This document shows positions 1 through 18,795 of a DNA stretch of 64,000 nucleotides, piece by piece. A program made the position numbers and the translations under genes. Source of the DNA: Candidatus Zixiibacteriota bacterium (GTDB taxonomy: Bacteria; Zixibacteria; MSB-5A5; GN15; FEB-12); NCBI GenBank assembly GCA_029860345.1, contig JAOUBJ010000001.1, positions 195,089 to 259,088 on the forward strand, in the 5' to 3' direction. The notes below the pieces were generated by a model that saw only the letters and a list, made by a program, of their open reading frames with translations, did not search any database and was not told where the DNA came from. Within the stretch, counting starts at the first letter, position 1. The number at the start of each line of letters is the position of its first letter.

Positions 1-3000
1 GCGGCGGTTCGGCGTCGTCCATAGCCAGCGTAGGTGGCTGGCCGAAACGTCCCGTGACCACGATACTGGTATCCGGCAGCGTACAAGCCAGCAAATCATC
101 AAGCACGGCCATCCCCTGGTCGGGCGTGATAGCGGTGATGCCGTCACGGGCCAACTCCTGTACGCGACCCAGCCGTTCACCCATGCCGACGCCGGACCAG
201 ACCGACCACTCGATGGACAGACAACGGCAGTTCTGTTGCTTGAGAGCGAATCGCGCCACCAGGTCGGATAGCCATTCGTTGGCCACGGCATAGTCGGCCT
301 CGCCGCGCAACCCGGCCCGGGCTATGATGGAACCGAAAGAGATGAACAATCGCAGGCGCCCATGGTTGAGGGCCGACAGAATGTTCTCAGCACCGAACAG
401 CTTGGGCGCCAGGGTGCGAATAAACGATGGTTTGTCCAGTCCCCGTATCAATTGCGGCACGTTAGTACCGGCGGCGTGCAGAAAAGCTGTCACTTCACCA
501 TGATCACGTCGTATTTTCTTAATTGTCGCGCCAACAGCGTCGGCATCGGTGACATCGGCAGAGTAGTACTCGAAATTCACGCCGGCCGAGCGGAGCCGCT
601 CCAGATTGGCCGCCAGTTCACTATCGCCACCAGGTTCGGCCCGTCCCAGCAGAGCCAGCCGAACACCACTCTTTTTGGCCCAGGCAAAGGCACACTCGGC
701 GCCTATTCCTTTACCCCCGCCCGAGACCAGCAGGAGATCCCTGGAGGTAAGTTTCATCGGCTGCTGTTTGTCTGAATTCTCAAAGTCCAGTAGTTGTAGT
801 CGCGGCGTTCGCCTTAGACCGTCTGCGTCGTAGGTAGCTTCTGAGAATCCCACCGCCGACTTCACTTCCTGCACCACCCAGGGAAGAGCTTCGACCTTGA
901 GCGGCACATCGACCAAGCAGGTGACCAGGTCGCGCCCCTCCAGATGAATTGTCCGGGCCAGTGAGCTGGCTGAGCGGCCGGCAACGGCGCTATGTTGCAC
1001 AAAAACCAGATACGAACCGGCCTTGAGATCGACGGCTGCTCTGGCCCCGCGTAACATGAATTCGATATGGTCTTCGTTTACATCGGAGGGCAGACAGATG
1101 ATCACACCCTGGCCGCCCCATTTTTCAAGCTCGGTCCTCAGCGAGGAAGCAAAGAGATGCTCCGGGTCGCTAAAGAGATGCCATTCTCCCTTCTCAGGCG
1201 GAGGTTGCTCAGGCCGTATGGATTGCTCTACTTTCTCCACATGCAGACAGCGCACCCAGGAATCTATCCCCGGCGCTTGCGTGGTGGGCGCAGCTGTTCC
1301 GTTGGTACCGGTCTCTTTTATGCGATCCAGCGCCGCGGCCACTTCCGACACGGTGGCGTCGGCGAACTGGTTGGGCGCCGTCAATGGCGGCAAGTTCAAA
1401 CGCCGAGCCGCTTCAACCACGATGCGACTCACCGTAATCGAGTTCAAGTGCAGATCATCAAGCAATCGACTATCACCACCGATTGCACGCAGCGGCAATT
1501 CCGCTTTGGCTGCAACCAATTGGCGAATCAAATCAAGTGTGTCTTCGGGTTGGTCGGCATCCTCCACCGAATCAAATTCACCCGACTCTCCTTCATCCGG
1601 GGCCTCTTTGGCCAGACGCTCCAACAACTCGGCCGAGGGTTGCTCATCATCGTCGATAGGCGCCAGTTCGCACGGGTTGACCAGATAACGAGGTTGTCGA
1701 TCCATATCGAATGGTCGGATAGCCCGGTCGGCAAAGAACACCGACGGCTCCAGATCGGCCCCCAGTGCGAAGGCCGCGGCGACCGCTTCAAGCATTCCGC
1801 GCAATTGTTTCCCGGCCGCATCGGTAGCTATCACCAAAGCGTCCACTTGCATGGCAGCCAGGCCGGCCAGGATTCCGCCCGGTCCCAGTTCGATAAACAA
1901 ATCGGATTCGGCCGCTGCTTGTTCTATAGCATCGGAGAACAGAACCGGCGATTGTACCTGCCGACATAAGAGAGCTTTGAGGTCATCGTCTTGGTTAAGT
2001 TCGCGTCCGGCTATGGTCGAAATGACCCGTCCGTTGATAGCTGCAAACGGAACGTCCGACAAATACGCAGCCAGAACCTGCTCAGCCTCAGCCAACAAAG
2101 GCGAGTGAAAAGCATGTGACACCGGCAGACGCCTGGACCTCAGCCCGCCGTCCTGAGCGCGGGCTATGATTTCTTCCACAGCTTCTTCACGACCCGAAAC
2201 CACCATCTGCTCGGGCGCGTTCACGCCGGCCAAGACCACTTCGCTGTCTTCCAGCAGCTTCTCAACCGTGGATCGATCGGCAATCACCGAAGCCATAGCG
2301 CCGGCTTCATGGCAATGTTCTGTCATGGCCCGTCCACGGGCCGCCGCCAGTTGCAAATAGGTTGCTTCATCGTAGACACCGGCCCAATGCAGGGCCGTCA
2401 ACTCACCCAGGCTGTTGCCGATTGCGTTGGTGGCGGAGATTCCCGCCTCGGTCAGAACTTTGAGTATAGCCATCGAAGCGGTGGCAATAGCCGGTTGAGC
2501 CACAGCGGTGGCAATGCCGTCGCCTTCCTGGGGTAGCTGCGCCCGGTCGTAGAGTTCATCGACGATCTCGAAGCGCGTTCTGATAGCGCCGCCGTCAAGA
2601 TTAGCCGGGGCGGCCTGGCCGGAGAAAAGGTAGGTTATCCTGGGCGCACCTTCGGGTGTACCAAGGAAGACTCCGGCCTCAATATCAAGCCTGCTGTCAA
2701 CACCTTCGGCCAGCCAGGTGGCAAGAGTTTTCAAAGAAGCGGTCAACCTGTCCGGCTGACCGGCCACAACAGCGGCGCGCATTTCTCGTTGGTCAAGATT
2801 GTCGGCCAGGGTGGCCGCTAAGTCGGCCATTTCCGCAACCGACAGGCCGGGTGCCAGGTTCGACAGCAGGTCTACCTGGCGGGACAAATCTTCGCGGTCG
2901 CGCCCACCCAACAGGAACAGTTCGGCATCCTGAGTAGTGCGCAACAGAGATTGTTCACGCGGCGTGAATGCCGTGCGAGTCATCGCTTGGGGACTCTCCA

Positions 3001-4378
3001 GGGTAACGTGCACGTTGATGCCACCAAAACCCATGGAACTGACGCCGGCACGCATGGGACGGGTCTGTGTCCATGGCTCGGCTGTCGAGTTCAGACGAAG
3101 GGCTGCCGTTTCCGAAGTCAGTTCCGGATGTGGCGTGGTAACACCGGTATTGGGCGGGATAGTCTGTTTATGCAGAGCCAAACTGGCCTTCAGCAACCCA
3201 GCCAGTCCGGCCGCAGCTTTGCAGTGCCCGATGTTGGCCTTTACAGAGCCGACAGTAGCCAGACGGTCGGGCGGCGTACCGGCTCGAATCGACTCGCTGA
3301 GTGCGGTCAACTCAACCGTGTCGCCGATCTCGGTGCCGGTGCCGTGGCCTTCGAAGTATCCGACCGAATCGGGGCCATAACCGGCCCGATCATAGGCTCG
3401 TTTCAAGGCCAGTTTCTGCCCCGGGATTTCCGGACGAGTGAGACCACCTTTGCCGTCGGACGATATTCCCCAGCCGCGAATCAATGCGTATATGCGACGG
3501 TTTTGGGCCACCGCTTCATCTTCGCGCATCAGCACCACGAAACCGGCCCCTTCACCCGGTAGGAATCCGGTCGGTCCGGCGTCATACACCCGCATTTCTC
3601 CTTTGGCTAAAGCACCCAAGCGGGCGAAACCGACCAGCTCAAACGGGTCCAGACTAAGATCAACGCCGCCAACTATAGCGACATCGATATCACCGACCGT
3701 AAGAGCGGAGCAAGCATTGGATAGTGACAAAAGCGAAGAACTACAAGCGCCGTCAACGGTGTAACCACCGCCGTGAAGGTCAAAGTAGTTGCAGATGCGC
3801 CCTGCTATAGTGTTGGACAGTCCGCCGGCCAGCGTCTCATCGCCAAGGGCCGGAAAGGGATGCTTGTAACGCGCTTCGAGATCACGCATGAAAGCAGCCC
3901 GCCGATCTTTTTCCCAGCCCTCCTCGGCTAACCGAGCGTTGACCACCCGGCGCACATAGGGCCAACGCAGCCTCATCACCGAGGCGCGTGAAAACTCACC
4001 GGTCAGGGTATTGCCCACCAGTACCCCGGTGGACTCGTTAGGTAGTCCTTCGCCGTCGGGAAAACCAGCATCGTCCAGAGCCTGAGCAGCCACTTCCAGG
4101 GCAAGCCAGTGAGTCGGGTCGGTCGAGCGATAGGTGCTGCCCACTACTCGGAAGCGTTCACGGTCGAACTCCCAACCTTCAATCAGGGCGGCTCGCGCGA
4201 CATAAGTCTGATCGGTAGCGCGGGGGTTGGAGGATACGTAATCGGCCGCTCGCAGCCGCTCGGGCGGCAAACGCCGGAACGACCGGCGACGAGCCAGTAC
4301 GTTTTCCCAGAGTTCCGATGGAGTTGCGGCGTCGGGATAGCGACACGCCATACCAACAATGGCCAATGATGACTTCAA
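1..4378 (-). CDS. Type I polyketide synthase, N-terminal ~1459 codons (KS-AT-ACP-KR); the 3' end runs off the left window edge
   Basis: Absent from the supplied ORF track because there is no stop in the window. My hand translation of the minus strand is open from TTG 4378 (in-frame ATG 4351) to base 1. KS: IAIVGMACRYP, active site DGACSSS (Cys codon 3743-3745), EGHGTGT, KANIGHCKAAAG. AT: GNSLGE (2405-2419) and VSHAFHS. ACP: LLDDLHLNSITV (Ser codon ~1439-1441). KR: LLVSGGGKGIGAE Rossmann motif (~700-725) and EADYAVANEW. The plus-strand ORFs listed here are antisense shadows. Confidence 0.9.
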   Translation of the reverse strand, partial: MKSSLAIVGMACRYPDAATPSELWENVLARRRSFRRLPPERLRAADYVSSNPRATDQTYVARAALIEGWEFDRERFRVVGSTYRSTDPTHWLALEVAAQALDDAGFPDGEGLPNESTGVLVGNTLTGEFSRASVMRLRWPYVRRVVNARLAEEGWEKDRRAAFMRDLEARYKHPFPALGDETLAGGLSNTIAGRICNYFDLHGGGYTVDGACSSSLLSLSNACSALTVGDIDVAIVGGVDLSLDPFELVGFARLGALAKGEMRVYDAGPTGFLPGEGAGFVVLMREDEAVAQNRRIYALIRGWGISSDGKGGLTRPEIPGQKLALKRAYDRAGYGPDSVGYFEGHGTGTEIGDTVELTALSESIRAGTPPDRLATVGSVKANIGHCKAAAGLAGLLKASLALHKQTIPPNTGVTTPHPELTSETAALRLNSTAEPWTQTRPMRAGVSSMGFGGINVHVTLESPQAMTRTAFTPREQSLLRTTQDAELFLLGGRDREDLSRQVDLLSNLAPGLSVAEMADLAATLADNLDQREMRAAVVAGQPDRLTASLKTLATWLAEGVDSRLDIEAGVFLGTPEGAPRITYLFSGQAAPANLDGGAIRTRFEIVDELYDRAQLPQEGDGIATAVAQPAIATASMAILKVLTEAGISATNAIGNSLGELTALHWAGVYDEATYLQLAAARGRAMTEHCHEAGAMASVIADRSTVEKLLEDSEVVLAGVNAPEQMVVSGREEAVEEIIARAQDGGLRSRRLPVSHAFHSPLLAEAEQVLAAYLSDVPFAAINGRVISTIAGRELNQDDDLKALLCRQVQSPVLFSDAIEQAAAESDLFIELGPGGILAGLAAMQVDALVIATDAAGKQLRGMLEAVAAAFALGADLEPSVFFADRAIRPFDMDRQPRYLVNPCELAPIDDDEQPSAELLERLAKEAPDEGESGEFDSVEDADQPEDTLDLIRQLVAAKAELPLRAIGGDSRLLDDLHLNSITVSRIVVEAARRLNLPPLTAPNQFADATVSEVAAALDRIKETGTNGTAAPTTQAPGIDSWVRCLHVEKVEQSIRPEQPPPEKGEWHLFSDPEHLFASSLRTELEKWGGQGVIICLPSDVNEDHIEFMLRGARAAVDLKAGSYLVFVQHSAVAGRSASSLARTIHLEGRDLVTCLVDVPLKVEALPWVVQEVKSAVGFSEATYDADGLRRTPRLQLLDFENSDKQQPMKLTSRDLLLVSGGGKGIGAECAFAWAKKSGVRLALLGRAEPGGDSELAANLERLRSAGVNFEYYSADVTDADAVGATIKKIRRDHGEVTAFLHAAGTNVPQLIRGLDKPSFIRTLAPKLFGAENILSALNHGRLRLFISFGSIIARAGLRGEADYAVANEWLSDLVARFALKQQNCRCLSIEWSVWSGVGMGERLGRVQELARDGITAITPDQGMAVLDDLLACTLPDTSIVVTGRFGQPPTLAMDDAEPP

Positions 4379-4514
4379 GCCGCTATCTCCTGAAATGACA
4401 GCGCGTGTGCATGCATGGTATACGCAACATATTCAGTAGTATGTTGAAAAAGTCTTTCCGTTATCGTGGCGCACGAGGACGTACACCACGCACAAGTATT
4501 TGCTGACAGCAATC

Positions 4515-5489
4515 TCACGTAGTTGTTTTCTCCTCGGTCATAATTGTCTGCAGCCGCTGGCGCCAGACTTCGTAGGCTGGGGTGGCATCAGTGCCCTCCG
4601 GCAAACCTTTCAGCGCTTCGTCGGTGCAGGCTGAGGCTTCACTTGCAGTCAAACCACACAGTTTCATACAGGCGTTATCGGTATGAGCAGCCGGATTTCG
4701 AGCCCGCTGGCGGGCTTTGGCGGCGAAGGCAACCCCTTGCCGGATAGGCAGCAGATACTCAGGCGACAAGGCAAGCCATTTCTGAAAATCGTCCGGTCTC
4801 GGTTTCCCCGCATAGGCTGCGGCCAGGCCGATGCCACTGAACAGGTCGGAACGGCGTTTTTCGGGGAAAGTGAGCGCGGTCGCCGTGGCTGTCTCCAGAT
4901 CGGCGCCGCTCACGAACCAGATGGCCCGACCCAAGCCCTGATCAAAAGCGCGCACCGCATAACCGGTCAGTTTGGACTCGGGCTGACGTTGCTCAATATA
5001 GCGAGGCCAGTGGAAATAGCCCTGGTGGAAACCGTAACCGTCCATAACCAGCCAGCGATACAAAGGGTCACACCGTTTCAGGAAGGGCTCAACCGCCCTT
5101 CCCATCCGCGCCAGGGCCCAGCCTGCTCCGATATGGACCATATAGAGATGCCTCTCCCCCGGGCCACTCAAAAAGGTCTTCACTCGGTTACGATTCCAGG
5201 GTGTCAATATATCCATCAGGGCCAGTGCCATCGAGGCGCCTTCATAGGCAAAACCGACCAGTTCGTCGTCGGTTTGGTCAAGTACTTCAGCCAAATCCGC
5301 CTGGGAATCCGCCTCCAGACCGGCTGAGTAGCCTCGGATGAAAGTAACGCCCAGTCCTTCCAAATGTGCCACCATCTCAGTCTCAGCAGGAAATCCGCGA
5401 CGACCGAACTTTGCCTCGCGCTCTGAGATGCCGAATAACCTTCGGCGGAGTTTTCCCGACAATTTCGACACTGGACGATTCACTTCCAT
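4515..5489 (-). CDS. DUF1702 family protein, resembling the UnbL/E3 component of enediyne PKS cassettes
   Basis: 324 aa, in the size range I recall for UnbL (~320-330 aa). Motifs recalled for DUF1702: GFAYEGASMA, HIGAGWALAR, RWLVMDGYGFHQGYF, DQGLGRAIWFVSG, GIGLAAAYAG. It lies directly upstream of the PKS on the same strand. The family call is from memory only. Confidence 0.6.
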   Translation of the reverse strand: MEVNRPVSKLSGKLRRRLFGISEREAKFGRRGFPAETEMVAHLEGLGVTFIRGYSAGLEADSQADLAEVLDQTDDELVGFAYEGASMALALMDILTPWNRNRVKTFLSGPGERHLYMVHIGAGWALARMGRAVEPFLKRCDPLYRWLVMDGYGFHQGYFHWPRYIEQRQPESKLTGYAVRAFDQGLGRAIWFVSGADLETATATALTFPEKRRSDLFSGIGLAAAYAGKPRPDDFQKWLALSPEYLLPIRQGVAFAAKARQRARNPAAHTDNACMKLCGLTASEASACTDEALKGLPEGTDATPAYEVWRQRLQTIMTEEKTTT

Positions 5490-8164: not shown

Positions 8165-9937
8165 ATGACTCGACGAAAAAGGCAAGTTTACATATATAGC
8201 GCCGTGACCATCGGACTGACCGCGCTCGCGGTCTATCTGGTAATGAGTCGAACCAGGGGACCTGCCTCAGGCAAACAATCTGTCCAGGGCGTAACCCAGG
8301 CATTGTTGCGCCACCTACCCGAAAACTGTCCGACCGTGCAATTCACCGATGTATCGGATTCATCCGGAGTTGTCTTTCGACATTTCGATGCCGTCCGTTC
8401 CACTATGCTGCCGGAGGATATGGGTTCCGGCGCTGCCTGGTCGGACTACGACAACGACGGCGACCTTGATCTGTACGTTGTCAACCTGGCCGGTCCCATT
8501 ACCTGGTCGCCGGCCCGGATCGCCGAATCGAGAGGTAATGCTCTGTACGCCAATAACGGCGACGGCAGCTTCACCAATGTGGCCAAAGCAGCCGGCGTGG
8601 ATCACAAAGGCAGAGACATGGGGGCGTTCTGGGGCGACTACGATGGCGACGGCGACCTCGATCTGTACGTGACATCCTATGGACCGAACGTGCTGTACTC
8701 AAACAACGGCGACGGAAGCTTTAGCGATGTGACATCCGAAGCGCGAGTGGGTGACAACAGCTTCTCCACCGGCGCGGCCTGGGGTGACTATGATCTTGAC
8801 GGATACCTTGATCTTTACGTGAGTAACTATGTCGAATTCCGACCCGAAGATACCTCGGTGAAAGAATCTTCGATGCAGTACCAGGCGACGGTTCCCTTCA
8901 CTCTTAATCCATCGTCCTATACAGCGCAAGCCAACAGGCTGTACCACAACCTCGGCAATGGAAGTTTCGAAGAGGTAGCCGAAGCGGCGGGCGTGGACAA
9001 TCTGACCGGACGCTCACTGAGTGTGACCTGGTGCGACTTCAACGACGACCGCCGGCCCGATCTGTATATCGCTAACGATGTCTCGGCCAACGGCATGTTT
9101 CAGAATGTCGGCAATGGCACTTTCGCCGACATAGGGGCATCATCGTGGGCGGCCGACTATAGGGGGGCAATGGGTCTCGCTATTGGTGATTTCGATCTCG
9201 ATCTTGATCTCGATATATTCCTGACCCACTGGATCGCCCAGGAAAACGGTCTCTACAGCAACATGCGAACCGAGTTTGAGGACATGGACGCAGATTCGTT
9301 ACGTTTTCGCGATATCGCCGACGGTGTCGGTCTTGGCGAGATTGCTCTCAACAAGGTGGGTTGGGGCACCGATTTCTTCGATTATGACAACGACGGCTTG
9401 CTCGACCTGCTGGTGATCAACGGCAGCACTTTTGAGAACCCCGAAAACACTCGTGAGTTGATCCCCATGAAGAGCATGCTGTTCTGGAATCGCGCCAACA
9501 AAGGGTACTTCAACGTTGCCCAAGTGGCCGGAGAAAGCCTGAACCGAAAAATCGTCGGTCGTGGCGCAGCCTTTGCCGATTATGACGACGACGGCGACGT
9601 GGATGTTTACGTGGTGGTACACGGCGGCGTGGGAATGCTCTTGCGCAACGACGGCGGCAACGACAATCATTGGCTGAAAGTGCAAACGATCGGTCGCGCC
9701 CCCAACACCCGGGCTATCGGCGCCAAACTGCGCCTGGTGTCCGGCGGTGTCTCACAACTGCGTGAAATCGGCGCCGGTAGTTCCTACATTTCGCAGAACA
9801 GCCTCGAAGCGGAGTTCGGACTGGGTACATCCACTCTCATCGATTCGCTGGTTGTCACCTGGCCGTCCGGCCTGACCCAGGTCATGACCAGGCTGGATGC
9901 CGACCAGACCGTTGTTGTCACCGAAGGAAGCCATTAG
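8165..9937 (+). CDS. FG-GAP/VCBS repeat protein with C-terminal ASPIC/UnbV domain (CRTAC1-family; UnbV/E4-like)
   Basis: 590 aa with an N-terminal TM anchor. Repeated DYDNDGDLDLYV-type FG-GAP Ca-binding motifs. C-terminus NHWLKVQTIG...AIGAKLRL...REIGAGSSYISQNSLEAEFGLG...VTWPSG is typical of UnbV_ASPIC. Confidence 0.8.
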   Translation: MTRRKRQVYIYSAVTIGLTALAVYLVMSRTRGPASGKQSVQGVTQALLRHLPENCPTVQFTDVSDSSGVVFRHFDAVRSTMLPEDMGSGAAWSDYDNDGDLDLYVVNLAGPITWSPARIAESRGNALYANNGDGSFTNVAKAAGVDHKGRDMGAFWGDYDGDGDLDLYVTSYGPNVLYSNNGDGSFSDVTSEARVGDNSFSTGAAWGDYDLDGYLDLYVSNYVEFRPEDTSVKESSMQYQATVPFTLNPSSYTAQANRLYHNLGNGSFEEVAEAAGVDNLTGRSLSVTWCDFNDDRRPDLYIANDVSANGMFQNVGNGTFADIGASSWAADYRGAMGLAIGDFDLDLDLDIFLTHWIAQENGLYSNMRTEFEDMDADSLRFRDIADGVGLGEIALNKVGWGTDFFDYDNDGLLDLLVINGSTFENPENTRELIPMKSMLFWNRANKGYFNVAQVAGESLNRKIVGRGAAFADYDDDGDVDVYVVVHGGVGMLLRNDGGNDNHWLKVQTIGRAPNTRAIGAKLRLVSGGVSQLREIGAGSSYISQNSLEAEFGLGTSTLIDSLVVTWPSGLTQVMTRLDADQTVVVTEGSH

Positions 9938-9942
9938 CTGCT

Positions 9943-11952
9943 ATGAAAAAGCTCGTACTGGCCGCCGCGCTCGTTCTGCTATCGGCCTTTATCGTCGTTA
10001 CCGTATTAAGAAAAACGACTACGGATACATCCAACCTTGACAAGGCCGGAGATACCATGGGCTCCAAGGCCAAGTCCGAGATCGATGATTTCTGGGCGGC
10101 TTACAACCGGGGCGAAGAATTATTCAGGGCGGGGCAGTTTGATCGATCACTTGATTATTTCCAAAATGCAATCGGGATAGATTCCACCCATGAAAACTCC
10201 TGGTATCAACTGGCCAACGTCTATGCCGAGACCGGACGGTACAGCAAAGCGCTTGAATGTTTTGAACACTTGATCGAGATAAACCCGATGAGTTCCCGAG
10301 CCCATCGACGCGCCGGTCAGCTCCTGAGTCGCCCTCGTCCGGGCGCGTCCACCGATCAGGACCTCGCCAAGGCTCATTTTGAACAAGCCCAGATGCTCAA
10401 CCGCGCAGAATCCGGACCCCACTATTCGATGGGACGACTTCTTGCGGCCGGGGGCGAAGCCAAACCGGGACGTGAACTGTTGCAGAAAGCAGCGGCCACC
10501 AATCCGAGATTCGTCGAGGCCTTCAGGCTGCTCGGCTATACCGATTTACTGCATGGACGATACGCCCCGGCCATCAGTTCATACATTCGCGCCCTGCAGG
10601 CCGGTGGTGTAGAAGATGCACCTGGTGCGCAGCCGGGTGAGGGTGACACCAAACAGTCTCTCAGCCAACAAGGACCATACTCCGGCAAGAACATCGCCGC
10701 ACTCTATGGACTGGCCATTGCCGCTCAATCCGCCGGCGGATATACCAACGACATTCCTGCAAACTGTCAGGTGGAACTGCCGCCTGTCGATCGCAGACTG
10801 ACTCCTGTTAACGTCTCATGGACACCGAAACCGCCGACACCAGAAGCAACGACGTGGGCCGACTTGAACGGCGACGGCAAGCCGGAACTCATTACGACAG
10901 GAGCCGGTTCACCCCTGCAAATCTGGAAGCAGAACGACTTTCACTTCTCAGACATTAGCGCCGACTTTGGCCTGAACGGTACGACCTTCGGTAGTGATCT
11001 TGTGCTGGTAGATTTTGGTCAAGATAAGGACCTGGATATCTTGTTGATCATCGGCACCCGTTACGGTGTCCAACAGTTGACGCTTATGCAAAACGAGGGT
11101 GATCACTTTGTCGACGCCACCGAGGAGACCGGACTGTCGCAGATTCCAGCGTTCACAACTTTTGCTTGTGACGACTTTGATAATAATGGTTGGACTGATC
11201 TGATCATAATGTCTCCCACCCAGGACACCGGATCACGACTTTTGCTCTATACTGACTTCACCGAAAGCCTCCAGCAACAATGGAGCTGTAATCTGACCGG
11301 TCCGGGCTGGCCCATCGATATCACCGTCGGTGACTATGACAATGACGGCTACCGTGATTTGTATATTACCCGGTGGAAAAACCCCGGCCACCTGATGAGA
11401 AGTGTTCAGGGGCGGTCTTTTGACGACGTTACCGCTAAGTCGGGTCTGGCGGCTCATACTTTGTCGTTGGCCGCAGAGTTTATTGATTTTAACCACGACG
11501 ACCACCTCGATTTGTTTGTATCAGAAGTAGCGCCATACGGGGACGCTTTGCGCTCGGTCCTGGATTTGCCGGCGCTTTCTGCAGACTATCGTCCGACGCT
11601 TTACACTGGTCGGGCTGATGGAGTTTTTGAAACTATGCCCTTTGACAACGCACTTGGCCACCACTACGGAACCTTGAATGTACATGCCGTTGACTTCGAC
11701 GCCGATGGATACACCGACATCTATCTCACCAACGGAGGATTTGCCTTCGATCGTTTCGAGCCGGATGCGCTGTTGTTGAACAAGACCGGGAAACAGTTCG
11801 ACTGTTATTACGCTGAGCCCCGGCTCGGCAAGTCGTTGTCGGTGTCCTCGCATCCGTCGATGGGTGATGGCCGTCCGCCGGTCATGATCGCGCGCGGTGG
11901 ATTCCATCCGGGTCAGCCGGAGACAGCACCACAACTATTCAACCTAAAGTAA
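9943..11952 (+). CDS. TPR plus FG-GAP/VCBS repeat protein, membrane anchored
   Basis: 669 aa. Signal anchor, TPR-like helical repeats in the N-terminal half, and FG-GAP motifs in the C-terminal half (DLNGDGKPE, DFDNNGWTDL, DYDNDGYRDLYIT, DFDADGYTDIYL). Starts 6 nt after the previous gene. Confidence 0.75.
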   Translation: MKKLVLAAALVLLSAFIVVTVLRKTTTDTSNLDKAGDTMGSKAKSEIDDFWAAYNRGEELFRAGQFDRSLDYFQNAIGIDSTHENSWYQLANVYAETGRYSKALECFEHLIEINPMSSRAHRRAGQLLSRPRPGASTDQDLAKAHFEQAQMLNRAESGPHYSMGRLLAAGGEAKPGRELLQKAAATNPRFVEAFRLLGYTDLLHGRYAPAISSYIRALQAGGVEDAPGAQPGEGDTKQSLSQQGPYSGKNIAALYGLAIAAQSAGGYTNDIPANCQVELPPVDRRLTPVNVSWTPKPPTPEATTWADLNGDGKPELITTGAGSPLQIWKQNDFHFSDISADFGLNGTTFGSDLVLVDFGQDKDLDILLIIGTRYGVQQLTLMQNEGDHFVDATEETGLSQIPAFTTFACDDFDNNGWTDLIIMSPTQDTGSRLLLYTDFTESLQQQWSCNLTGPGWPIDITVGDYDNDGYRDLYITRWKNPGHLMRSVQGRSFDDVTAKSGLAAHTLSLAAEFIDFNHDDHLDLFVSEVAPYGDALRSVLDLPALSADYRPTLYTGRADGVFETMPFDNALGHHYGTLNVHAVDFDADGYTDIYLTNGGFAFDRFEPDALLLNKTGKQFDCYYAEPRLGKSLSVSSHPSMGDGRPPVMIARGGFHPGQPETAPQLFNLK

Positions 11953-11980: not shown

Positions 11981-14900
11981 TTGGCCATTCGAACGAACAA
12001 TTTTCTGCCTGGACTTTCGTGCCTCGGTACACTGATGCTGGTATCGGCAGTAGTCACTGGTGCCGACAATCCCGACCTGATTCGCACCCGCAACCAGGGG
12101 GCGGCCTACTATGAGAATCAGGACTACCCGGACGCGGTGCCGCCGTTTGAGAGCTGCGTGGAGTTCGAGGACGCCGTGGCGGCAGATTGGATCAACCTCG
12201 GGCTGGCCTACTATCGAACCAAACAATGGGAAGAAGCCGTTGAGGCGCTTGAGACGGCGGACAGTGACGAGGATAGCTATCCGCATATCGCCTACGCACT
12301 CGGATTGATCCTCAAAAAGAACGATGCCTTCGAAGCAGCCGCAGAGCGATTTGAAAAAGTCGTCGCCCAGGACCCGGCCGAAGCGCCGGCCTATTACAGT
12401 CTGGGTGTCATGTACCAAAAACTGGGTCGTGATGATGATGCTGAGCGAGCCTTTCAAGCGGTCGTGCGCCATGATCCCCAACATGCCAGCGCCCACTACT
12501 ATTTGTTCAAGTATGCCAAAGCAGCCGGACGACGTGACGAAGCCAAACGAGAGATGCGAATCTTCAGCCGACTGCAACGTGAGATACCGGACAAACAACG
12601 CACCGAGGCCGTCTACGAAGAATCGCAATACCTCACGCCCATTATCCCACCCCACCAGAGTTTCATGCCCGCCGATAGCGACCATCGTGGCAGGATCAGG
12701 TTCGTGGATGTTACCAAAGAGGCGGGGCTGCATGGACCGTCACCGTTTGACACTGACTCATTAAATTACCCACAAGTCTATCAGATCAGTTCACTTGATG
12801 GTAGCACCTGCTTGGTTGACCTTGATGGCGACAATGATCTGGACTTGTACGTCGTTAGGTGCAGTGATGAGCGATCGCCTGGTAATAGGCTGTATCTAAA
12901 TGACGGATCCGGCCACTTCTCGGACGTCAGCTCCGGATCTGGGGCCGCCAACACAAGTTGCGGCCATTACGCGGTTGCAGGTGATATCGATAACAACGGT
13001 ACTGTTGATATTGTACTGTTCAATTACCGTGAGATCAAAGTGCTTAGCAACGATGGAACAGCTCACTTCACCGACCTGTCCGATCGAGCAGGTCTTAGAG
13101 ACTCCACTGTGGTCGGAGATGCCGAGTTGATAGACTACGACCACGACGGAGACCTGGACTTACTTATTGGTGTTTACGGATCACCGGGACAGTCACGCGA
13201 TGGCTGGATGATGTACGTCGACAAGCCGGAGGTTGGATTTGACCGATGGCGTGATCTTATGCCCGAGACAAATCGTATTTATCGCAATAACGGGGACGGC
13301 AGTTTTACAAAAGTCGAAGACAGCGTCTGGGGAAACGAAGTACAGGCATGGACTATCGATGTAGAGTGCGGTGACTTCGATAATGATGATGACACCGATT
13401 GGTTATCGGTCAATGTCAACGCTCCTTGTCAGCTTCACCTCAACCTACGGCAGGGGCAATTCGCTACTTCCGAACCACTCGGCGAGGAGGGCGCGGAAAG
13501 GGGGACGGCCTGCGACTTTGACAACGATGGCGACCTGGATGTTCTTCTTGTCAGGGCAAAAGGCGCACACCTTTACTTGAACAGCGGTGATGCAACTTTC
13601 ACAGAGAAGCGTTTGCCGATCCTTACAAAAGCAGTCACCGACGCCAACATTTCCGCGGTTCGGCCGTTTGACTTCGATAACGACGGGCTTATCGACATCA
13701 CTATGACATACGATAAGGGCGACCCGAGTTTTCATGTCAACCTTGGCCAGAACGAGTTTCAGCTTCTCACTAACGGGCCGGCACTAACCACCGCTTTTTC
13801 AGCTTGGGAACCCGATCATCTTACCGTTGGAGACATCGATAACGATGGTGACCTGGATTTGGTTGGACACAACAACCGTATCCTGCCCTTCATTCTCGAA
13901 AACCGGGGTGGCGAAAGCGCCAACTGGCTCAAAGTGCAGCCGGTGGGAATACGGGTGCCAAAGCAGGGCATCGGCGCCAAACTTGAAATCAAAGCCGGAC
14001 CCTACTACCAACGCCGAGACGTTCACCAATGGCCGGTGCATTTTGGACTCGGCGAGGTGGACAAAATCGACGTGCTGCGCATCACCTGGACCAACGGAAT
14101 CGTGCAAAACATGGTCGACGTGCCCACCAACGAAATCTACAAGGTCGAAGAAATCGTCCGCACCGACGCATCGTGCCCCTTCCTGTTCACGTTCGACGGT
14201 GAAAAGTTTAACTACATTAATGACATCCTCGGCGTGTCGGCGATGGGCGTGCCGCTTGACGAAGGGTTCTATCACCACCCCGACCCGGATGAGTATGTCC
14301 GTATCGATGGCACCATGCTCGCGCCTTTCGACGGTCGTTACCTGCTCAGGCTGGCCGCCGAATTGAAAGAGACAGTTTACCTCGACCAGGTGAAACTCAT
14401 TGCCGTAGATCATCCATCGAACGTCGACGTCTACCCCAACGAACGGTTCAGCGAGCCGCCGTTTATGGAACCCGGCTTGCACACCGTGAAAGAAAGACGT
14501 CACCCTGTTGCAGCCACCGACTACCAAGGCAACAACATCCTGCCGCTTATTGAGAAAACCGACCACAGGTATCCGTCTAACATTCCAATGAGCAGCTATG
14601 ACGGATTGGCCCAACGGCACTGGTTCGAATTCGATCTCGGTGACCTGCGCGGGCATGAGACGATCACGATGTTTCTCACCGGATGGATCTACTGGTCGTC
14701 GGCCTCGGCCAATGTAGCTATCTCGCAGAACCGTCAGGTTGGTTTTGAAGTTGTCAGCCTGAGTGTCCCGGATGCCGACGGTGAATGGATCACGGTAATC
14801 GACGACATCGGCCTGCCAAACGGCAAGAACTCCACTATTCCGGTGCATCTGTCGGGACTCTTTCCCTCTGATGACTTTCGCGTCCGCTTGACCACTAACC

Positions 14901-15430
14901 TGGTCGTTTACTGGGATGAAGTTTTTTTCACGGTGGGGACCGAAAGCTATCCCGCCGATCAGATCGAATGTAGACTATCGACAGCCGATCTTCACTATCG
15001 CGGTTTCTCGAACATGCGACAAGACTCGCTGGGTATGGAGTTTTTTGATTACGCCGCAGTCAACAAGATGGGACCCTGGCGCCAGCACTCAGGGCGATAC
15101 ACACGCTACGGCGAGGTCTCGGAACTTCTCACCGAACCGGATGATCGCTATGTCATCTATGGACCGGGTGAGGAGATATCTTTCGAGTTTGAAGCGCCAC
15201 CCCTTCCGAAAGACGGCTGGCGGCGCGACTTTTTTCTGTATGCCTTCGGTTGGATCAAGGACGGCGATCCCAACACCGTCCATTCGGTGACTGTCGGACC
15301 GCTGCCGTTTATCGATATGCCCGGCTACCCGTATGACTCCAGCCTCTCCGGGCGGGCCGATGAAATCGCCGGCGACCTCGCCGACTGGTTGACCAGAGAA
15401 CAGGTCCGCACCGTGAGACCGTTGCGTTGA
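11981..15430 (+). CDS. Large TPR + FG-GAP + ASPIC/UnbV protein with a ~430-aa unassigned C-terminal extension
   Basis: 1149 aa. TTG start with GGGAGA RBS. N-terminal TPRs, several DxDxDGDLD FG-GAP motifs, an UnbV-like block (NWLKVQPVG...GIGAKLEIK...HFGLGE...ITWTNG), then a long unassigned C-terminus. Confidence 0.75.
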   Translation: MAIRTNNFLPGLSCLGTLMLVSAVVTGADNPDLIRTRNQGAAYYENQDYPDAVPPFESCVEFEDAVAADWINLGLAYYRTKQWEEAVEALETADSDEDSYPHIAYALGLILKKNDAFEAAAERFEKVVAQDPAEAPAYYSLGVMYQKLGRDDDAERAFQAVVRHDPQHASAHYYLFKYAKAAGRRDEAKREMRIFSRLQREIPDKQRTEAVYEESQYLTPIIPPHQSFMPADSDHRGRIRFVDVTKEAGLHGPSPFDTDSLNYPQVYQISSLDGSTCLVDLDGDNDLDLYVVRCSDERSPGNRLYLNDGSGHFSDVSSGSGAANTSCGHYAVAGDIDNNGTVDIVLFNYREIKVLSNDGTAHFTDLSDRAGLRDSTVVGDAELIDYDHDGDLDLLIGVYGSPGQSRDGWMMYVDKPEVGFDRWRDLMPETNRIYRNNGDGSFTKVEDSVWGNEVQAWTIDVECGDFDNDDDTDWLSVNVNAPCQLHLNLRQGQFATSEPLGEEGAERGTACDFDNDGDLDVLLVRAKGAHLYLNSGDATFTEKRLPILTKAVTDANISAVRPFDFDNDGLIDITMTYDKGDPSFHVNLGQNEFQLLTNGPALTTAFSAWEPDHLTVGDIDNDGDLDLVGHNNRILPFILENRGGESANWLKVQPVGIRVPKQGIGAKLEIKAGPYYQRRDVHQWPVHFGLGEVDKIDVLRITWTNGIVQNMVDVPTNEIYKVEEIVRTDASCPFLFTFDGEKFNYINDILGVSAMGVPLDEGFYHHPDPDEYVRIDGTMLAPFDGRYLLRLAAELKETVYLDQVKLIAVDHPSNVDVYPNERFSEPPFMEPGLHTVKERRHPVAATDYQGNNILPLIEKTDHRYPSNIPMSSYDGLAQRHWFEFDLGDLRGHETITMFLTGWIYWSSASANVAISQNRQVGFEVVSLSVPDADGEWITVIDDIGLPNGKNSTIPVHLSGLFPSDDFRVRLTTNLVVYWDEVFFTVGTESYPADQIECRLSTADLHYRGFSNMRQDSLGMEFFDYAAVNKMGPWRQHSGRYTRYGEVSELLTEPDDRYVIYGPGEEISFEFEAPPLPKDGWRRDFFLYAFGWIKDGDPNTVHSVTVGPLPFIDMPGYPYDSSLSGRADEIAGDLADWLTREQVRTVRPLR

Positions 15431-16424: not shown

Positions 16425-18767
16425 TCACTTCTTCTGCTGAAAAACGAATCGCGGCCTGCACACCGCGACAATAGCCGGTAATACTGTCACGCTGACAACA
16501 AAGCTGACCAGCATAGCAATGGCGATCAACAGACCAAACCGCACCAACGTGCTGAACTCAGAGACTGCCAACAGCAAGAAACCCAAGGCCACTACAAAGG
16601 CAGTGAAAAAGAGTGCACGACCGGTGAAGGCAAGGGCACGTTGTATGGCGCCGGCGTCATCATCGGTATGTGCGCCGGCTTCAAGGCGCAGACGATCCAG
16701 CAGGTGTATCGGGAAATTCACGCCCGCTCCGATGGCGATAGATGCGAACATTGATGTACCTACGCCCAAGCCGATGCCACCGATACCCATTACAGCATAG
16801 TTGACCAACACCGCCACCGCCACGGTGAATGTACACAGCAATCCGGCGACCATCGAACGGAACATTAGCCCGGTCAACAGCAATACGCACAGGATAGAGA
16901 ACAGCACGCTGCGTATGTGGGTCTGACGCACCAACCCCAACCAGTGGTAATCGAGATTGGCCCGGCCGGCCAGTCTGATCGTGAGCGCGCCGTCACTGAA
17001 GGTGCTGTCGATGAACCCCTGAAGCGCCGTAATGGTCTCACGCTGATGAACGTACTCACTTGAGGTCATGCGAACGATCAGGTTGGCCGAGCCGTAGTCG
17101 GCGTCTACCACTTCACTGAGCAGGCGCGACATAGGCGAACTTGGCGCCCTCAGCACGTCGAGATAGAAACCGGTCACCCCTGGGTCGTCAGGGATAGCAA
17201 AGAAGTCCGGATCGTCCCGATTCATTTTCTGATGAGCGCGCTTGACCCAACCGACCAGCGAGTGGGTCCCACCCACGAAGGGCAGTTGCTCGGTGAACTC
17301 TTCCAACCGAGCGATCTTCTTTAGCGTCTGGGCCTCCAGCATGTATCGAGGTTCAGCGGATGACAGAACTATATTGAGCTGATTGGTACCATCGAATCGT
17401 TCATTGAACGCATTGGTCGCCTGAACCATCGGATGGTCGTCCTTAAAAGCCAGCAAGCGTGAATCATTGACGACCAACTTAAGCGATCCAAGGAAGGCTC
17501 CTCCTATCAATGCAACCCCGACCACCAAAACGACCTTTCGCCTGCGATGAATCAGCGTACCCAGAACCGACATGAACCTCCCAAGTCGATCCAGAGCGGC
17601 AACACCTTCAGCGTGCGATGCTCTTGAGGTAAAGGCGCCACTGGACTTCAAAGGCAGGATGGCCAATCCGGCCGGTATCACGGTGAACGAATATATCAAC
17701 GCACCGGCGACACCGAAACAGGTGAACAATCCAAAAAAGCGTATGGGCGGCATAACTCCGGTTATGTACAGTGCCAGGAATCCGGCGATGTCGGTCAGAG
17801 ATGTTATCAGAACCGGATACCAAAGGGCCATACAGGCATCGACAACAATCGTGCGTGTATCTCGACCGCGCATGGCCAATTGTTCCTCGTAATACTGACC
17901 GACAAGATGCAGCGAATCGGCCACCCCCAGAGCCATTATGATCACAAAGATACCATTGGTGACGATAAAGACCGGTACGCCAAACACCGACATCAACCCC
18001 AGCGCCATAGCCGACGCCCCGCCAATTACACAAAGCGGCAAAACCGTTCCACGCAGCGTTCGGTAGGCCAGAATAATCAAAAGAGCCATCACGATCGGAC
18101 AAACGAAGTTCATACGTAGCGCGTCGTCGGACACCGCGGTGCCCATATAGGCCCGCACTGCCGGTTCACCGGTGACGATCAGCTGTTCATCGGTCGTTGG
18201 AAAACCGTCCAGGAGAAGACTCAGACGATGGTACAACGCTTCAGCCTGGGCGTCATCATCGACTGCGATGATGATTGCGCCGGCGGAACCGTCAGCTGCC
18301 ACCAACGTCCCCCGATACAATTCGTATGACAGGATGTCGTTTTTCAGAGAGTCCAGCCCGGCTCTTGTTTCCGGCGTATCTCCCAGTAGTAGATCGAATC
18401 CCGGTTCACCATCCTCATCAAAGTAGACGCCGGATTCCGTGGCCAGACTCATGACATCGGATGAATCTATCTGCGGCAACTTTTGGATGGCCACGGTCAG
18501 GTCACGAATCAACGATATCGTCGACTCGGTAAAGATGCCATGTTTGGCGTCGCGGATGATGCCGACCACCAGTGGCTCGTTCAGATCAAAACGGTGATCG
18601 ACTTCCAATTTTGCGAGTAAGGCGGGATGATCGGCTGGAATGAATGTGTCGGGATGCGTCTCGCGCGTTAGCCCGAACATGTACAACCCAAGCACACCAG
18701 CAATCAATGCCACCACGGCCAGGACCGGGTAAGGATGCTTGGTTACAAACTCAAAGTATCGTCGCAT
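16425..18767 (-). CDS. MMPL/RND-superfamily membrane transporter (exporter)
   Basis: The track ORF is 831 aa starting at 18920. I place the start at ATG 18767 (MRRYFEFVTKHPYPVLAV...), which removes the overlap with the upstream TPR gene ending at 18796. Architecture is two blocks of ~6 TM helices separated by soluble domains, typical of MMPL/HpnN-like proteins. Confidence 0.75.
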   Translation of the reverse strand: MRRYFEFVTKHPYPVLAVVALIAGVLGLYMFGLTRETHPDTFIPADHPALLAKLEVDHRFDLNEPLVVGIIRDAKHGIFTESTISLIRDLTVAIQKLPQIDSSDVMSLATESGVYFDEDGEPGFDLLLGDTPETRAGLDSLKNDILSYELYRGTLVAADGSAGAIIIAVDDDAQAEALYHRLSLLLDGFPTTDEQLIVTGEPAVRAYMGTAVSDDALRMNFVCPIVMALLIILAYRTLRGTVLPLCVIGGASAMALGLMSVFGVPVFIVTNGIFVIIMALGVADSLHLVGQYYEEQLAMRGRDTRTIVVDACMALWYPVLITSLTDIAGFLALYITGVMPPIRFFGLFTCFGVAGALIYSFTVIPAGLAILPLKSSGAFTSRASHAEGVAALDRLGRFMSVLGTLIHRRRKVVLVVGVALIGGAFLGSLKLVVNDSRLLAFKDDHPMVQATNAFNERFDGTNQLNIVLSSAEPRYMLEAQTLKKIARLEEFTEQLPFVGGTHSLVGWVKRAHQKMNRDDPDFFAIPDDPGVTGFYLDVLRAPSSPMSRLLSEVVDADYGSANLIVRMTSSEYVHQRETITALQGFIDSTFSDGALTIRLAGRANLDYHWLGLVRQTHIRSVLFSILCVLLLTGLMFRSMVAGLLCTFTVAVAVLVNYAVMGIGGIGLGVGTSMFASIAIGAGVNFPIHLLDRLRLEAGAHTDDDAGAIQRALAFTGRALFFTAFVVALGFLLLAVSEFSTLVRFGLLIAIAMLVSFVVSVTVLPAIVAVCRPRFVFQQKK

Positions 18768-18795
18768 GGTACTGTATTGTTCACCAGAATTCCAT

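What the first reader, a model, noticed from the sequence alone, without database searches (positions are those of the whole stretch)
1..5489. Unlisted truncated PKS with a DUF1702/UnbL-like partner: a possible enediyne-type (PKSE) cassette outside Actinobacteria
The largest coding region in the first 4.4 kb is missing from the ORF track because it has no stop in the window. Hand translation gives KS-AT-ACP-KR in a single polypeptide. That is the N-terminal order of iterative enediyne PKSE enzymes (KS-AT-ACP-KR-DH-PPTase) and of PfaA-like polyunsaturated fatty-acid/polyene synthases. The gene immediately upstream on the same strand looks like DUF1702, which I recall as the UnbL/E3 component of the conserved enediyne cassette. 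A UnbV(E4)-like FG-GAP/ASPIC protein lies 2.7 kb away on the other strand. The rest of the window looks FCB-like rather than actinobacterial, so this would be an unusual host for such a cassette.
Basis: partly seen in the sequence, partly recalled or inferred. Interest (0 to 1): 0.65.

Follow-up and report, generated by a model that had tools for sequence, protein, structure and literature searches.

The report
Enediyne-type PKS cassette lacking E5
The window's left end carries most of a genuine enediyne-type iterative polyketide synthase with its DUF1702 (E3) partner, in a Zixibacteria genome. The cassette has no E5 gene and no canonical E4 gene, so it more likely makes an exported linear polyene than a cyclic enediyne. 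Such synthases are already known to be widespread outside Actinobacteria.

Summary
Window 1-4378 (-) is an unbroken 1459-aa KS-AT-ACP-KR reading frame, cut only by the window edge. Window 4515-5489 (-) is a strong DUF1702 protein.

An identical public contig shows the full 1941-aa protein, KS-AT-ACP-KR-DH-PPTase. It aligns end to end with SgcE of C-1027 at 46.6% identity; the KS domain alone is 61% identical. A CalE7/SgcE10-type thioesterase (57% identical) follows, then an MMPL/LolA-like transporter. PKSE, E3 and E10 membership is therefore solid, and the PfaA reading is rejected.

The five-gene enediyne cassette is not complete:
- E5 (UnbU) is absent from about 10 kb beyond the PKS to about 59 kb on the other side, and also from relatives.
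- A better but still divergent E4-like gene lies at 20930-22750, in an operon with a second MMPL.

The host is not very unusual. Complete E3-E4-E5-E-E10 cassettes occur in Acidobacteriota, Planctomycetota, Cyanobacteria and other phyla, and the literature already reports this.

Best reading: an E5-less variant that makes an exported polyene-type lipid. Interest is moderate.

The parts
1..4378 (-). First 1459 codons (KS-AT-ACP-KR) of a 1941-aa PKSE-type iterative type I PKS. TTG start at 4378. The DH and PPTase-like parts lie left of the window (L002 14379-15826).
   Evidence: The frame is open to the window edge. The exact full-length protein is P0001, found on L002. It is 46.6% identical to SgcE end to end. 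Active-site residues C212 (3743-3745), H345, H385, S656, S980 (1439-1441) and Y1363 are present.
4515..5489 (-). E3/UnbL-family protein (DUF1702, 324 aa), 136 bp upstream of the PKS on the same strand.
   Evidence: PF08012 scores 345 bits. It is 39% identical to SgcE3 over 315 aa, E 1e-65. It scores 422 bits on an E3 profile whose median score is 448. JGI names its relatives 'enediyne biosynthesis protein E3'. The AlphaFold2 model is all-alpha with pLDDT 92 and has no PDB fold match.
20930..22750 (-). Divergent E4-like protein (E4', 606 aa, FG-GAP x6 plus UnbV_ASPIC, N-terminal membrane/signal segment). First gene of a four-gene operon.
   Evidence: It scores 539 bits on the E4 profile. That is intermediate between true E4 (at least 914) and generic paralogues (at most 145). 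It is 53-54% identical to the PKSE-adjacent E4' genes of L011 (Pirellulaceae) and L039, and 29% identical to true E4. Its orthologue lies next to E3-PKSE in the relative whose PKS is 70% identical (L088). The family also occurs without a PKSE (L089).
16425..20933 (-). Rest of the E4' operon: TPR protein (20016-20933), TPR protein (18796-20037) and MMPL/HAE3-type RND transporter (16425-18920). Starts and stops overlap.
   Evidence: ORFs and overlaps are, Pfam, NCBIfam HAE3/HpnN-like. The MMPL is 71% identical to the one beside E3-PKSE in L086 and 56% identical to the one in L011.
11981..15430 (+). TPR-FG-GAP-ASPIC protein (1149 aa). It is kept next to the E3-PKSE operon in relatives, but its membership of the system is uncertain.
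   Evidence: Pfam is. It is 64% identical to the gene directly beside E3 in L086, 55% in L087 and 34% in Pirellulaceae L011.
8165..11952 (+). Probably not cassette members.
   Evidence: They score 132 and 30 bits on the E4 profile. They are present in L087 but absent from L086.

Best explanation
Window 1-5489 is the front of an operon in a Zixibacteria genome. The gene order is E3 (DUF1702), then PKSE, then an E10-type thioesterase, an MMPL transporter fused to a LolA-like domain, a small membrane protein and a large DUF6073 protein.

Shown. The PKS is a full-length, apparently active member of the enediyne PKS (PKSE) family. The thioesterase and the DUF1702 protein belong to the same families as their counterparts in characterised enediyne clusters.

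Inferred from established PKSE/TE biochemistry. The PKS, self-primed by its C-terminal PPTase-like domain, iteratively builds an ACP-bound conjugated polyene from malonyl units. The hot-dog thioesterase releases it, in the known systems as 1,3,5,7,9,11,13-pentadecaheptaene.

Inferred from context. There is no E5/UnbU gene, no canonical E4 and no tailoring or self-resistance gene. The core is instead embedded among lipid-type RND (MMPL/HAE3) transporters, a LolA-like domain and secreted FG-GAP/ASPIC proteins. The end product is therefore more likely a linear polyene-derived lipid or hydrocarbon, possibly modified by E3 and handed to the cell envelope, than a cyclised 9- or 10-membered enediyne. 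This is an E5-less variant of the enediyne PKS cassette. The same variant recurs in several non-actinobacterial phyla.
For: - Full-length protein and operon.
- End-to-end alignment with SgcE at 46.6% identity. Every domain is 41-61% identical, including the PPTase region.
- KS score is at least 605 bits to all 80 PKSE loci, against about 225-230 bits to PUFA and modular KS domains in the PDB.
- The ACP matches the CalE8 ACP (2l9f) and the AT matches the DynE8 AT (4amn).
- All catalytic motifs are present.
- The thioesterase hits CalE7 at 1e-48 and SgcE10 at 7e-48, and is 57% identical to SgcE10.
- E3 is a typical family member.
- The E5 profile finds nothing in the window, L002, L086, L087, L088, L091 or L092.
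- No SgcE6, E7, E8, E9 or E11 homologues were found.
- The rest of the window is housekeeping.
- The order PKSE-TE-MMPL/LolA-orf219-DUF6073 is conserved in relatives down to about 51-55% PKS identity.
- E4' and the second MMPL lie beside E3-PKSE in L088, L011, L027, L029 and L039.
- Among non-actinobacterial loci with at least 8 kb of flank on both sides, 5 of 19 have no E5 and one more has only a divergent E5.
- PKSE plus E10 giving the heptaene is taken from PMC4480864 and PMC9682884.
Against: - No chemistry is known for any non-actinobacterial PKSE.
- The functions of E3, E4 and E5 are unknown (PMC9992847), so the absence of E5 does not prove that no enediyne or polyyne is made.
- Only about 74 kb of one genome was inspected. 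E4 and E5 could be encoded elsewhere.
- The MMPL/E4'/DUF6073/LolA-like genes also occur together with no PKSE within 10 kb (L089). Most DUF6073 loci have no PKSE, and the E4' family is very large. The link between the core and these neighbours could therefore be plain synteny.
- The E5-less loci are scattered in the PKSE tree, so they are not one coherent lineage.
- The AT carries GNSLG instead of the near-universal GHSLG.
Confidence: 0.6

Rival explanations
1. This is a canonical enediyne producer. The full five-gene cassette exists, but E4 and E5 (and tailoring genes) lie elsewhere in the genome, or the divergent E4' plus some unrecognised membrane protein replace them. The product would then be a true 9- or 10-membered enediyne.
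For: E, E3 and E10 are all typical family members. In some actinobacterial loci E4 and E5 lie 5-8 kb from E, or beyond the 10-kb flank. Another Zixiibacteriota genome (L019) has E5 directly upstream of its PKSE. An E4-like gene is present 15 kb away.
Against: E5 is absent from 10 kb on one side and 59 kb on the other side of the PKS. It is also absent from about 22 kb upstream and 17 kb downstream in relatives. E4' is only 29% identical to true E4 and belongs to a very large family that mostly lacks any PKSE link. No tailoring, apoprotein or resistance genes were found.
Confidence: 0.12
2. This is a PfaA/HglE-like secondary-lipid synthase making polyunsaturated fatty acids or heterocyst-glycolipid-type chains, not a PKSE.
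For: The KS-AT-ACP-KR order is shared with PfaA. The TIGR02813 PfaA model gives a partial hit of 494 bits.
Against: That score is below the PfaA cut-off of 1010. The protein has a single ACP, a C-terminal PPTase-like domain and full-length collinearity with SgcE. The KS is far closer to PKSE (639 bits) than to a PUFA-synthase KS (225 bits). The partner thioesterase is of the CalE7/SgcE10 type. No PfaB, PfaC or PfaD-like genes are nearby.
Confidence: 0.02
3. The E3-E-E10 core is a stand-alone three-gene unit. Its position among FG-GAP/ASPIC, MMPL and DUF6073 genes is lineage-specific synteny with no functional meaning. The product, a heptaene-type hydrocarbon, is simply released.
For: The MMPL/E4'/DUF6073/LolA-like set occurs without a PKSE (L089). 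Most DUF6073 loci lack a PKSE. L050 carries only E3-E-E10 and L052 only E-E10.
Against: The MMPL/LolA gene follows the thioesterase after 17-83 bp in the window genome, L086 and L087, and the same gene order is kept in L091 and L092. MMPL genes also accompany PKSE in L019, L023 and many Pyrinomonadaceae loci. E4' plus MMPL sit beside E3-PKSE in Planctomycetota and Multivoradales at 40-56% identity.
Confidence: 0.22

Closest known systems
SgcE / C-1027 enediyne PKS cassette (Streptomyces globisporus plasmid SGLP1, NZ_CP013739)
   Same: The domain order KS-AT-ACP-KR-DH-PPTase is the same. The PKS is 46.6% identical over 1933 residues. The DUF1702 protein is 39% identical to SgcE3 and the thioesterase is 57% identical to SgcE10.
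   Different: There is no SgcE5/UnbU homologue, no canonical SgcE4, no second DUF1702 (SgcE2) and no E6-E9 or E11 homologue. The thioesterase is directly adjacent rather than 6.5 kb away, and an MMPL/LolA-like transporter follows it. The PKS lies outside the actinobacterial clade, which has 100% bootstrap support.
Complete E3-E4-E5-E-E10 cassettes of non-actinobacterial phyla (Pyrinomonadaceae, Terriglobia, Poribacteria, Isosphaeraceae, Clostridia, Kapaibacteriota, Cyanobacteria)
   Same: The PKSE is 49-52% identical, and the E3 and E10 families are the same. The hosts are likewise non-actinobacterial, and MMPL genes are often nearby.
   Different: Those loci keep canonical E4 (43-45% identical to SgcE4) and E5 (about 50% identical to SgcE5) directly upstream of E. 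The window locus has neither.
E5-less or E5-divergent PKSE loci of Planctomycetota and Multivoradales (L011, L027, L029, L039)
   Same: E3 lies directly next to E. A divergent E4' (40-54% identical to the window's) and an MMPL transporter are nearby. Canonical E5 is missing.
   Different: In those loci E4' and MMPL lie within 5 kb of the PKS, whereas here they are 11-15 kb away behind inserted genes. L027 and L029 keep a divergent RnfD-like E5 (about 30% identical). They have no orf219 homologue, and only L011 has a weak DUF6073-like match downstream.
PfaA-type PUFA synthases
   Same: The N-terminal domain order is KS-AT-ACP-KR.
   Different: The PfaA model cut-off is not reached. The protein has a single ACP, a PPTase tail and a CalE7-type thioesterase partner.

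Membership tests
PKSE (iterative type I enediyne polyketide synthase) | A single polypeptide of about 1900-2000 aa with the order KS-AT-ACP-KR-DH-PPTase | tested here: met
   P0001 is 1941 aa. Pfam finds KS, AT, PP-binding, KR, PKS_DH_N and PS-DH. The C-terminal 190 aa are 46.8% identical to the SgcE PPTase region, and residues D1834, E1881 and K1885 are conserved.
PKSE (iterative type I enediyne polyketide synthase) | Collinear full-length homology to a genetically characterised PKSE | tested here: met
   SgcE residues 2-1933 align with the whole protein at 46.6% identity and 1567 bits.
PKSE (iterative type I enediyne polyketide synthase) | KS domain groups with PKSE rather than with PfaA, modular or FAS KS domains | tested here: met
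   The KS scores 605-690 bits against the other 77 PKSE in the tree and 639 bits (61% identity) against SgcE. The best PDB PUFA KS scores 225 bits and a modular KS about 230 bits. No maximum-likelihood tree with outgroups was made.
PKSE (iterative type I enediyne polyketide synthase) | Catalytic residues intact: KS Cys-His-His, AT Ser, ACP Ser, KR Ser/Tyr/Asn, DH His | tested here: met
   All are present. The only oddity is that the AT motif reads GNSLG instead of GHSLG.
PKSE (iterative type I enediyne polyketide synthase) | Produces an ACP-bound conjugated polyene, or the heptaene when E10 is present | not testable with these tools
   This needs heterologous expression and LC-UV-MS.
Minimal enediyne PKS cassette (E3/E4/E5/E/E10; PMC4480864, PMC9992847) | E10 hot-dog thioesterase of the CalE7/SgcE10/DynE7 family | tested here: met
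   L002 15810-16235 lies just outside the window. It hits CalE7 at 1.4e-48 and SgcE10 at 7.5e-48, and scores 250 bits on a profile with a median of 251.
Minimal enediyne PKS cassette (E3/E4/E5/E/E10; PMC4480864, PMC9992847) | E3 (UnbL, DUF1702) | tested here: met
   
Minimal enediyne PKS cassette (E3/E4/E5/E/E10; PMC4480864, PMC9992847) | E4 (UnbV; secreted FG-GAP/ASPIC protein of the cassette-specific subfamily) | tested here: not met
True E4 proteins score at least 914 bits on the E4 profile. The best window gene (20930-22750) scores 539 bits and is 29% identical to true E4.
Minimal enediyne PKS cassette (E3/E4/E5/E/E10; PMC4480864, PMC9992847) | E5 (UnbU; RnfD/NqrB-like integral membrane protein) | tested here: not met
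   The best E5-profile score in the window, L002, L086 and L087 is 5 bits, against a typical score of about 480-500 bits (lowest full-length E5: 449). L088, L091 and L092 also have no hit. The rest of the genome was not available.
PfaA-type PUFA synthase | Reaches the TIGR02813 model cut-off, has tandem ACPs and has PfaB/C/D partners | tested here: not met
   The score is 494 bits against a cut-off of 1010. There is one ACP, and no such neighbours exist.
DUF1702 (PF08012) | Full-length match above the Pfam gathering score | tested here: met
   The score is 344.8 bits against a cut-off of 25, covering profile positions 3-317 of 319.

The most novel reading that the evidence does not exclude
FCB- and PVC-group bacteria may carry a natural, simplified PKSE pathway consisting of E3, E and E10, without E5 and without canonical E4. 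In this reading its polyene or polyyne product is built as an envelope lipid and exported by a dedicated MMPL/LolA-like transporter, with secreted FG-GAP/ASPIC (E4') proteins acting on it outside the cytoplasm. If so, PKSE chemistry would have a physiological (membrane or surface) role unrelated to DNA-cleaving antibiotics. The system would also isolate the function of E3, which has been unknown for more than 20 years.
Probability: 0.3. Interest if true: 0.65.

Novelty: new variant of a known kind. Interest (0 to 1): 0.42.

Why it matters
How the linear PKSE polyene becomes an enediyne core, and what E3, E4 and E5 do, are still open questions (PMC9992847 calls them conserved genes of unknown function).

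A naturally occurring cassette that keeps E3 but lacks E5 and canonical E4 gives a minimal system. Expressing E plus E10 with and without E3 would show what E3 adds. The cassette recurs in Zixibacteria and is paralleled in Planctomycetota.

The finding also cautions against labelling every 'enediyne PKS' hit in metagenomes as an enediyne producer. In this sample roughly a quarter to a third of non-actinobacterial loci lack a canonical E5.

As a host-range record alone (PKSE in Zixibacteria) it adds little to published surveys.

Tried and rejected
- PfaA/PUFA reading. Rejected on the model cut-off, the architecture and the KS scores.
- 8165-9937 as UnbV/E4. Rejected, because it is a generic paralogue.
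- Search for E5 by tblastn with SgcE5, and by a 63-sequence profile run with filters off. Nothing was found in the window, L002 or any relative's locus.
- Search for SgcE2 and SgcE6-E11 homologues. None was found other than E3 and E10.
- Test of whether E4' is dedicated to PKSE. It is not: the family is very large (7923 hits) and occurs with MMPL, DUF6073 and LolA-like genes in a locus that has no PKSE.
- Walking further left of the PKS in the window's own genome through the metagenome collection. The contig is not held there, but two more syntenic relatives were recovered.
- PPTase motif change E1836Q. It was considered as a sign of inactivation and dropped, because several actinobacterial PKSE share it.
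- Literature. No paper was found on Zixibacteria PKSE or on an E5-less cassette. Rudolf et al. 2016 (PMC4753101) was not held.
Full report
**1. Observation**

On the minus strand, the frame ending at window base 2 is open for 1477 codons, from 4432 to the left edge. A TTG at 4378 is preceded by AGGAG, and an ATG lies at 4351. The ORF listing does not show this frame because it runs off the window.

Pfam finds four domains: ketoacyl synthase (residues 4-413), acyltransferase (621-836), a weak PP-binding match (950-1017) and KR (1217-1395). The gene at 4515-5489 (-) matches DUF1702 over its full length at 345 bits. The gene at 8165-9937 (+) has five FG-GAP_3 repeats and a UnbV_ASPIC domain.

**2. 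Extending the gene**

The exact DUF1702 protein and the exact PKS are on public contigs. Locus L002 (ENA k141_155363, 250 kb) is identical to window 1-14378 with 0 mismatches and continues leftwards. NCBI names the source organism 'candidate division Zixibacteria bacterium'. A T9SS sorting-domain protein elsewhere in the window fits an FCB-group host.

The complete PKS, P0001, is 1941 aa. After the KR come PKS_DH_N and PS-DH, then a 190-aa tail. Downstream genes in L002 are:
- a 141-aa hot-dog thioesterase, overlapping the PKS stop by 17 bp
- a 1064-aa MMPL (HAE3/HpnN-like RND) transporter fused to a LolA-like domain
- two genes specific to this genome
- a 219-aa membrane protein
- a 1609-aa DUF6073 protein

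The 'truncated PKS' is thus an artefact of the window edge.

**3. Is it a PKSE?**

tblastn against plasmids found SgcE on the C-1027 plasmid SGLP1 aligned from residue 3 to 1940. Local tblastn gives 46.6% identity over 1957 columns.

Identity to SgcE by domain:

| Domain | Identity |
|---|---|
| KS | 61% |
| AT | 45% |
| ACP | 53% |
| KR | 45% |
| DH | 41% |
| PPTase region | 47% |

Further evidence for membership:
- The KS scores 639 bits against SgcE and 605-690 bits against the other 77 PKSE in the tree. The best PUFA-synthase KS in the PDB (6riw) scores 225 bits and single modular KS domains score about 230 bits.
- The only ACP hit in the PDB is the CalE8 ACP (2l9f, 63 bits).
- The AT matches the DynE8 AT structure.
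- The PfaA model TIGR02813 scores 494 bits against a cut-off of 1010.
- The catalytic residues of KS, AT, ACP, KR, DH and the PPTase core are conserved.
- The only oddity is GNSLG in place of GHSLG in the AT domain, shared with 1 of the 80 other sequences.

PKSE membership is established as far as sequence can establish it.

**4. The partner genes**

The thioesterase matches CalE7 (1.4e-48), SgcE10 (7.5e-48) and DynE7 (about 3e-40). Generic YbgC-type thioesterases match at 1e-7 or worse. It is 57% identical to SgcE10.

The DUF1702 protein is 39% identical to SgcE3 and 36% to SgcE2. It scores like a typical member on a profile built from 93 cassette E3/E2 proteins: 422 bits against a median of 448. 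An AlphaFold2 model from 33 sequences is confident (pLDDT 92, pTM 0.91) and entirely helical, but it has no significant match among solved structures. The fold therefore gives no clue to E3's chemistry.

**5. What is missing**

The literature defines the enediyne PKS cassette as E10/E/E5/E4/E3, with E3-E5 of unknown function (PMC4480864, PMC9992847).

E5:
- SgcE5 (UnbU) finds nothing in the window or L002 by tblastn.
- A 63-member E5 profile, run with filters off, scores at most 5 bits in the window, L002 and the relatives whose PKS is 70% identical. Typical E5 proteins score about 480-500 bits (lowest full-length: 449).
- In the window genome the searched region runs from 10 kb beyond the PKS stop to 59 kb on the other side.
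- In relatives it covers about 22 kb upstream (L088) and about 17 kb downstream (L091, L092).

E4 scores on the E4 profile fall into three groups:

| Group | Score (bits) |
|---|---|
| True E4 | at least 914 |
| Window 20930-22750 and the genes of L011, L027, L029, L039 | 523-585 |

No homologue of SgcE6, E7, E8, E9 or E11 is present. The remaining 40 kb of the window encodes housekeeping functions: a corrinoid methyltransferase set, transporters, amino-acid metabolism and surface proteins.

**6. Comparison across genomes**

A scan of GTDB species representatives returned 80 PKSE loci, roughly 35 non-actinobacterial and 45 actinobacterial.

Component counts among loci with at least 8 kb of flank on both sides:

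| Group | Loci | E3 | E4 | E4' | E5 | E10 |
|---|---|---|---|---|---|---|
| Actinobacteria | 39 | 34 | 35 | 1 | 36 | 39 |
| Non-Actinobacteria | 19 | 18 | 12 | 3 | 13, plus 1 divergent | 18 |

Complete E3-E4-E5-E-E10 cassettes occur in Pyrinomonadaceae, Terriglobia, Blastocatellia, Poribacteria, Isosphaeraceae, Clostridia and Kapaibacteriota, and the cyanobacterium Crocosphaera carries E3, E4 and E5. A non-actinobacterial host is therefore not remarkable in itself. This agrees with Singh et al. 2023 (PMC10308959), Calteau et al. 2014 (PMC4247773) and Shen et al. 2015 (PMC4480864: 54 of 61 clusters in Actinomycetales, so 7 outside that order).

In a neighbour-joining tree of 81 full-length PKSE, all 47 actinobacterial sequences form one clade with 100% bootstrap support. 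The window PKS forms a clade with its two 70%-identical relatives, also at 100%, outside the actinobacterial clade. Deeper nodes are unresolved.

E5-less loci are the window genome, L011 (Pirellulaceae), L039 (Multivoradales), L050 (Angelobacter) and L052 (Thiotrichaceae). L027 and L029 (Planctomycetaceae) have only a divergent RnfD-like E5, about 30% identical. These loci are scattered in the tree, so the loss or replacement is probably recurrent.

**7. The neighbourhood**

The order PKSE-TE-MMPL/LolA-orf219-DUF6073 is conserved in L086, L087, L091 and L092. In those loci PKS identity falls to about 51-55%.

Window 16425-22750 (-) is a tight operon, with overlapping stops and starts, of E4', two TPR proteins and a second MMPL. 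In the 70% relative the orthologous operon lies directly beside E3-PKSE, with only the divergent 1141-aa TPR-FG-GAP-ASPIC gene between them. In the window genome four extra genes are inserted there.

In Pirellulaceae L011 the order is TPR-FG-GAP-ASPIC, TPR-E4', MMPL, E3, PKSE, TE. The identities to the window proteins are 34%, 54%, 56%, 51%, 50% and 60%. L027 and L029 have E4'-TPR-E5'-MMPL divergent from E3-PKSE-TE. This cross-phylum recurrence argues for a functional link.

Three results argue against exclusivity:
- The E4' family is very large (7923 hits).
- L089 carries MMPL, E4', TPR-FG-GAP-ASPIC, DUF6073 and a LolA-like gene with no PKSE within 10 kb.
- Most DUF6073 loci lack a PKSE.

The envelope module therefore exists on its own, and the PKSE core joins it only in some genomes.

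**8. Mechanism**

Shown: an intact PKSE with a CalE7-type thioesterase and an E3 protein.

Established for the family: PKSE plus E10 yields 1,3,5,7,9,11,13-pentadecaheptaene when the other cassette enzymes are absent (PMC4480864, PMC9682884).

Inferred: this locus has no E5, no canonical E4 and no tailoring or resistance genes. It also has an RND lipid-type transporter, carrying a periplasmic LolA-like lipid-binding domain, located 17 bp after the thioesterase. The most likely output is a linear conjugated polyene or a derivative made by E3, exported to the envelope, where secreted FG-GAP/ASPIC proteins may act on it. My confidence in the whole statement is about 0.6. Confidence in PKSE/E3/E10 membership is above 0.95. 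Confidence that the product is not a cyclic enediyne is about 0.8. Confidence in the export and envelope role is about 0.5.

**9. Verdict**

This is a new variant (E5-less, MMPL-linked) of a known kind of system, in a phylum not previously singled out. Interest is moderate. Its main value is as a natural minimal system for asking what E3 does, and as a caution against equating 'enediyne PKS' hits with enediyne production.

Noticed in passing
window 2414-2416 (-), PKS residue 655: The AT active-site motif reads GNSLG instead of GHSLG. Only this protein and one Crocosphaera PKSE (L022) among 81 aligned PKSE have Asn here, and the relatives that are 70% identical keep His. The catalytic Ser656 and the HAFH motif are intact.
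   Followed up: partly
window 5928-8012 (+): A 694-aa protein with a DUF4405 membrane domain and multihaem cytochrome c motifs lies divergent from the E3 gene. It is 75% identical in relative L087 but absent from L086, so it is probably not part of the cassette.
   Followed up: partly
window 27126-30942 (+): This is a corrinoid-dependent methyltransferase set: an MTTB-family trimethylamine/glycine-betaine-type methyltransferase, a Met_synt_B12-like activation domain, a B12-binding protein and a homocysteine S-methyltransferase-like protein.
   Followed up: no
window 54628-59643 (+) and 60273-63998 (-): These are two very large surface proteins. One has a PQQ-type beta-propeller with a dockerin; the other has a T9SS Por_Secre_tail sorting domain. 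They share short segments of 42-53% identity with the DUF6073 proteins downstream of the PKS.
   Followed up: no
L089 (GCA_975957375.1, CDLSLU010000004.1) 7431-22600: MMPL, TPR-E4', TPR-FG-GAP-ASPIC, DUF6073, a LolA-like (TP_0789-like) protein and an ABC transporter lie together with no PKSE within 10 kb. This looks like a free-standing envelope module of unknown function, the same one that flanks the PKSE core in Zixibacteria and Pirellulaceae.
   Followed up: partly
L052 (Thiotrichaceae, JADGDF010000001.1) and L050 (Ca. Angelobacter): These PKSE loci have full 9-10 kb flanks. L052 contains only E plus E10, and L050 only E3, E and E10. They are even more reduced versions of the cassette.
   Followed up: partly
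L005 7877-9001 (SgcE5) and L027 4864-5877: E5/UnbU gives a borderline match to the NQR2_RnfD_RnfE family: 26.9 bits against a cut-off of 27.7 for SgcE5, and 31.2 bits for the divergent planctomycete copy. PGAP labels some copies 'Rnf subunit D'. This suggests E5 is a membrane redox-type protein.
   Followed up: no
window 53547-54254 (+); L088 12733-13767: A DUF3179 gene lies far from the cassette in the window. In the relative with 70% PKS identity, two DUF3179 genes sit inside the E4'-TPR-MMPL operon.
   Followed up: no
window 4515-5489 (-), DUF1702 family alignment A2: Thirty-three diverse E3 proteins share many invariant polar residues: E44, E83, D93, R102, D150, H155, D183, R188, R212, Q251, R260, C274, C278 and R312. 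They lie in a confidently predicted all-helical fold that has no solved homologue. This looks more like an enzyme or ligand-binding site than a scaffold.
   Followed up: partly
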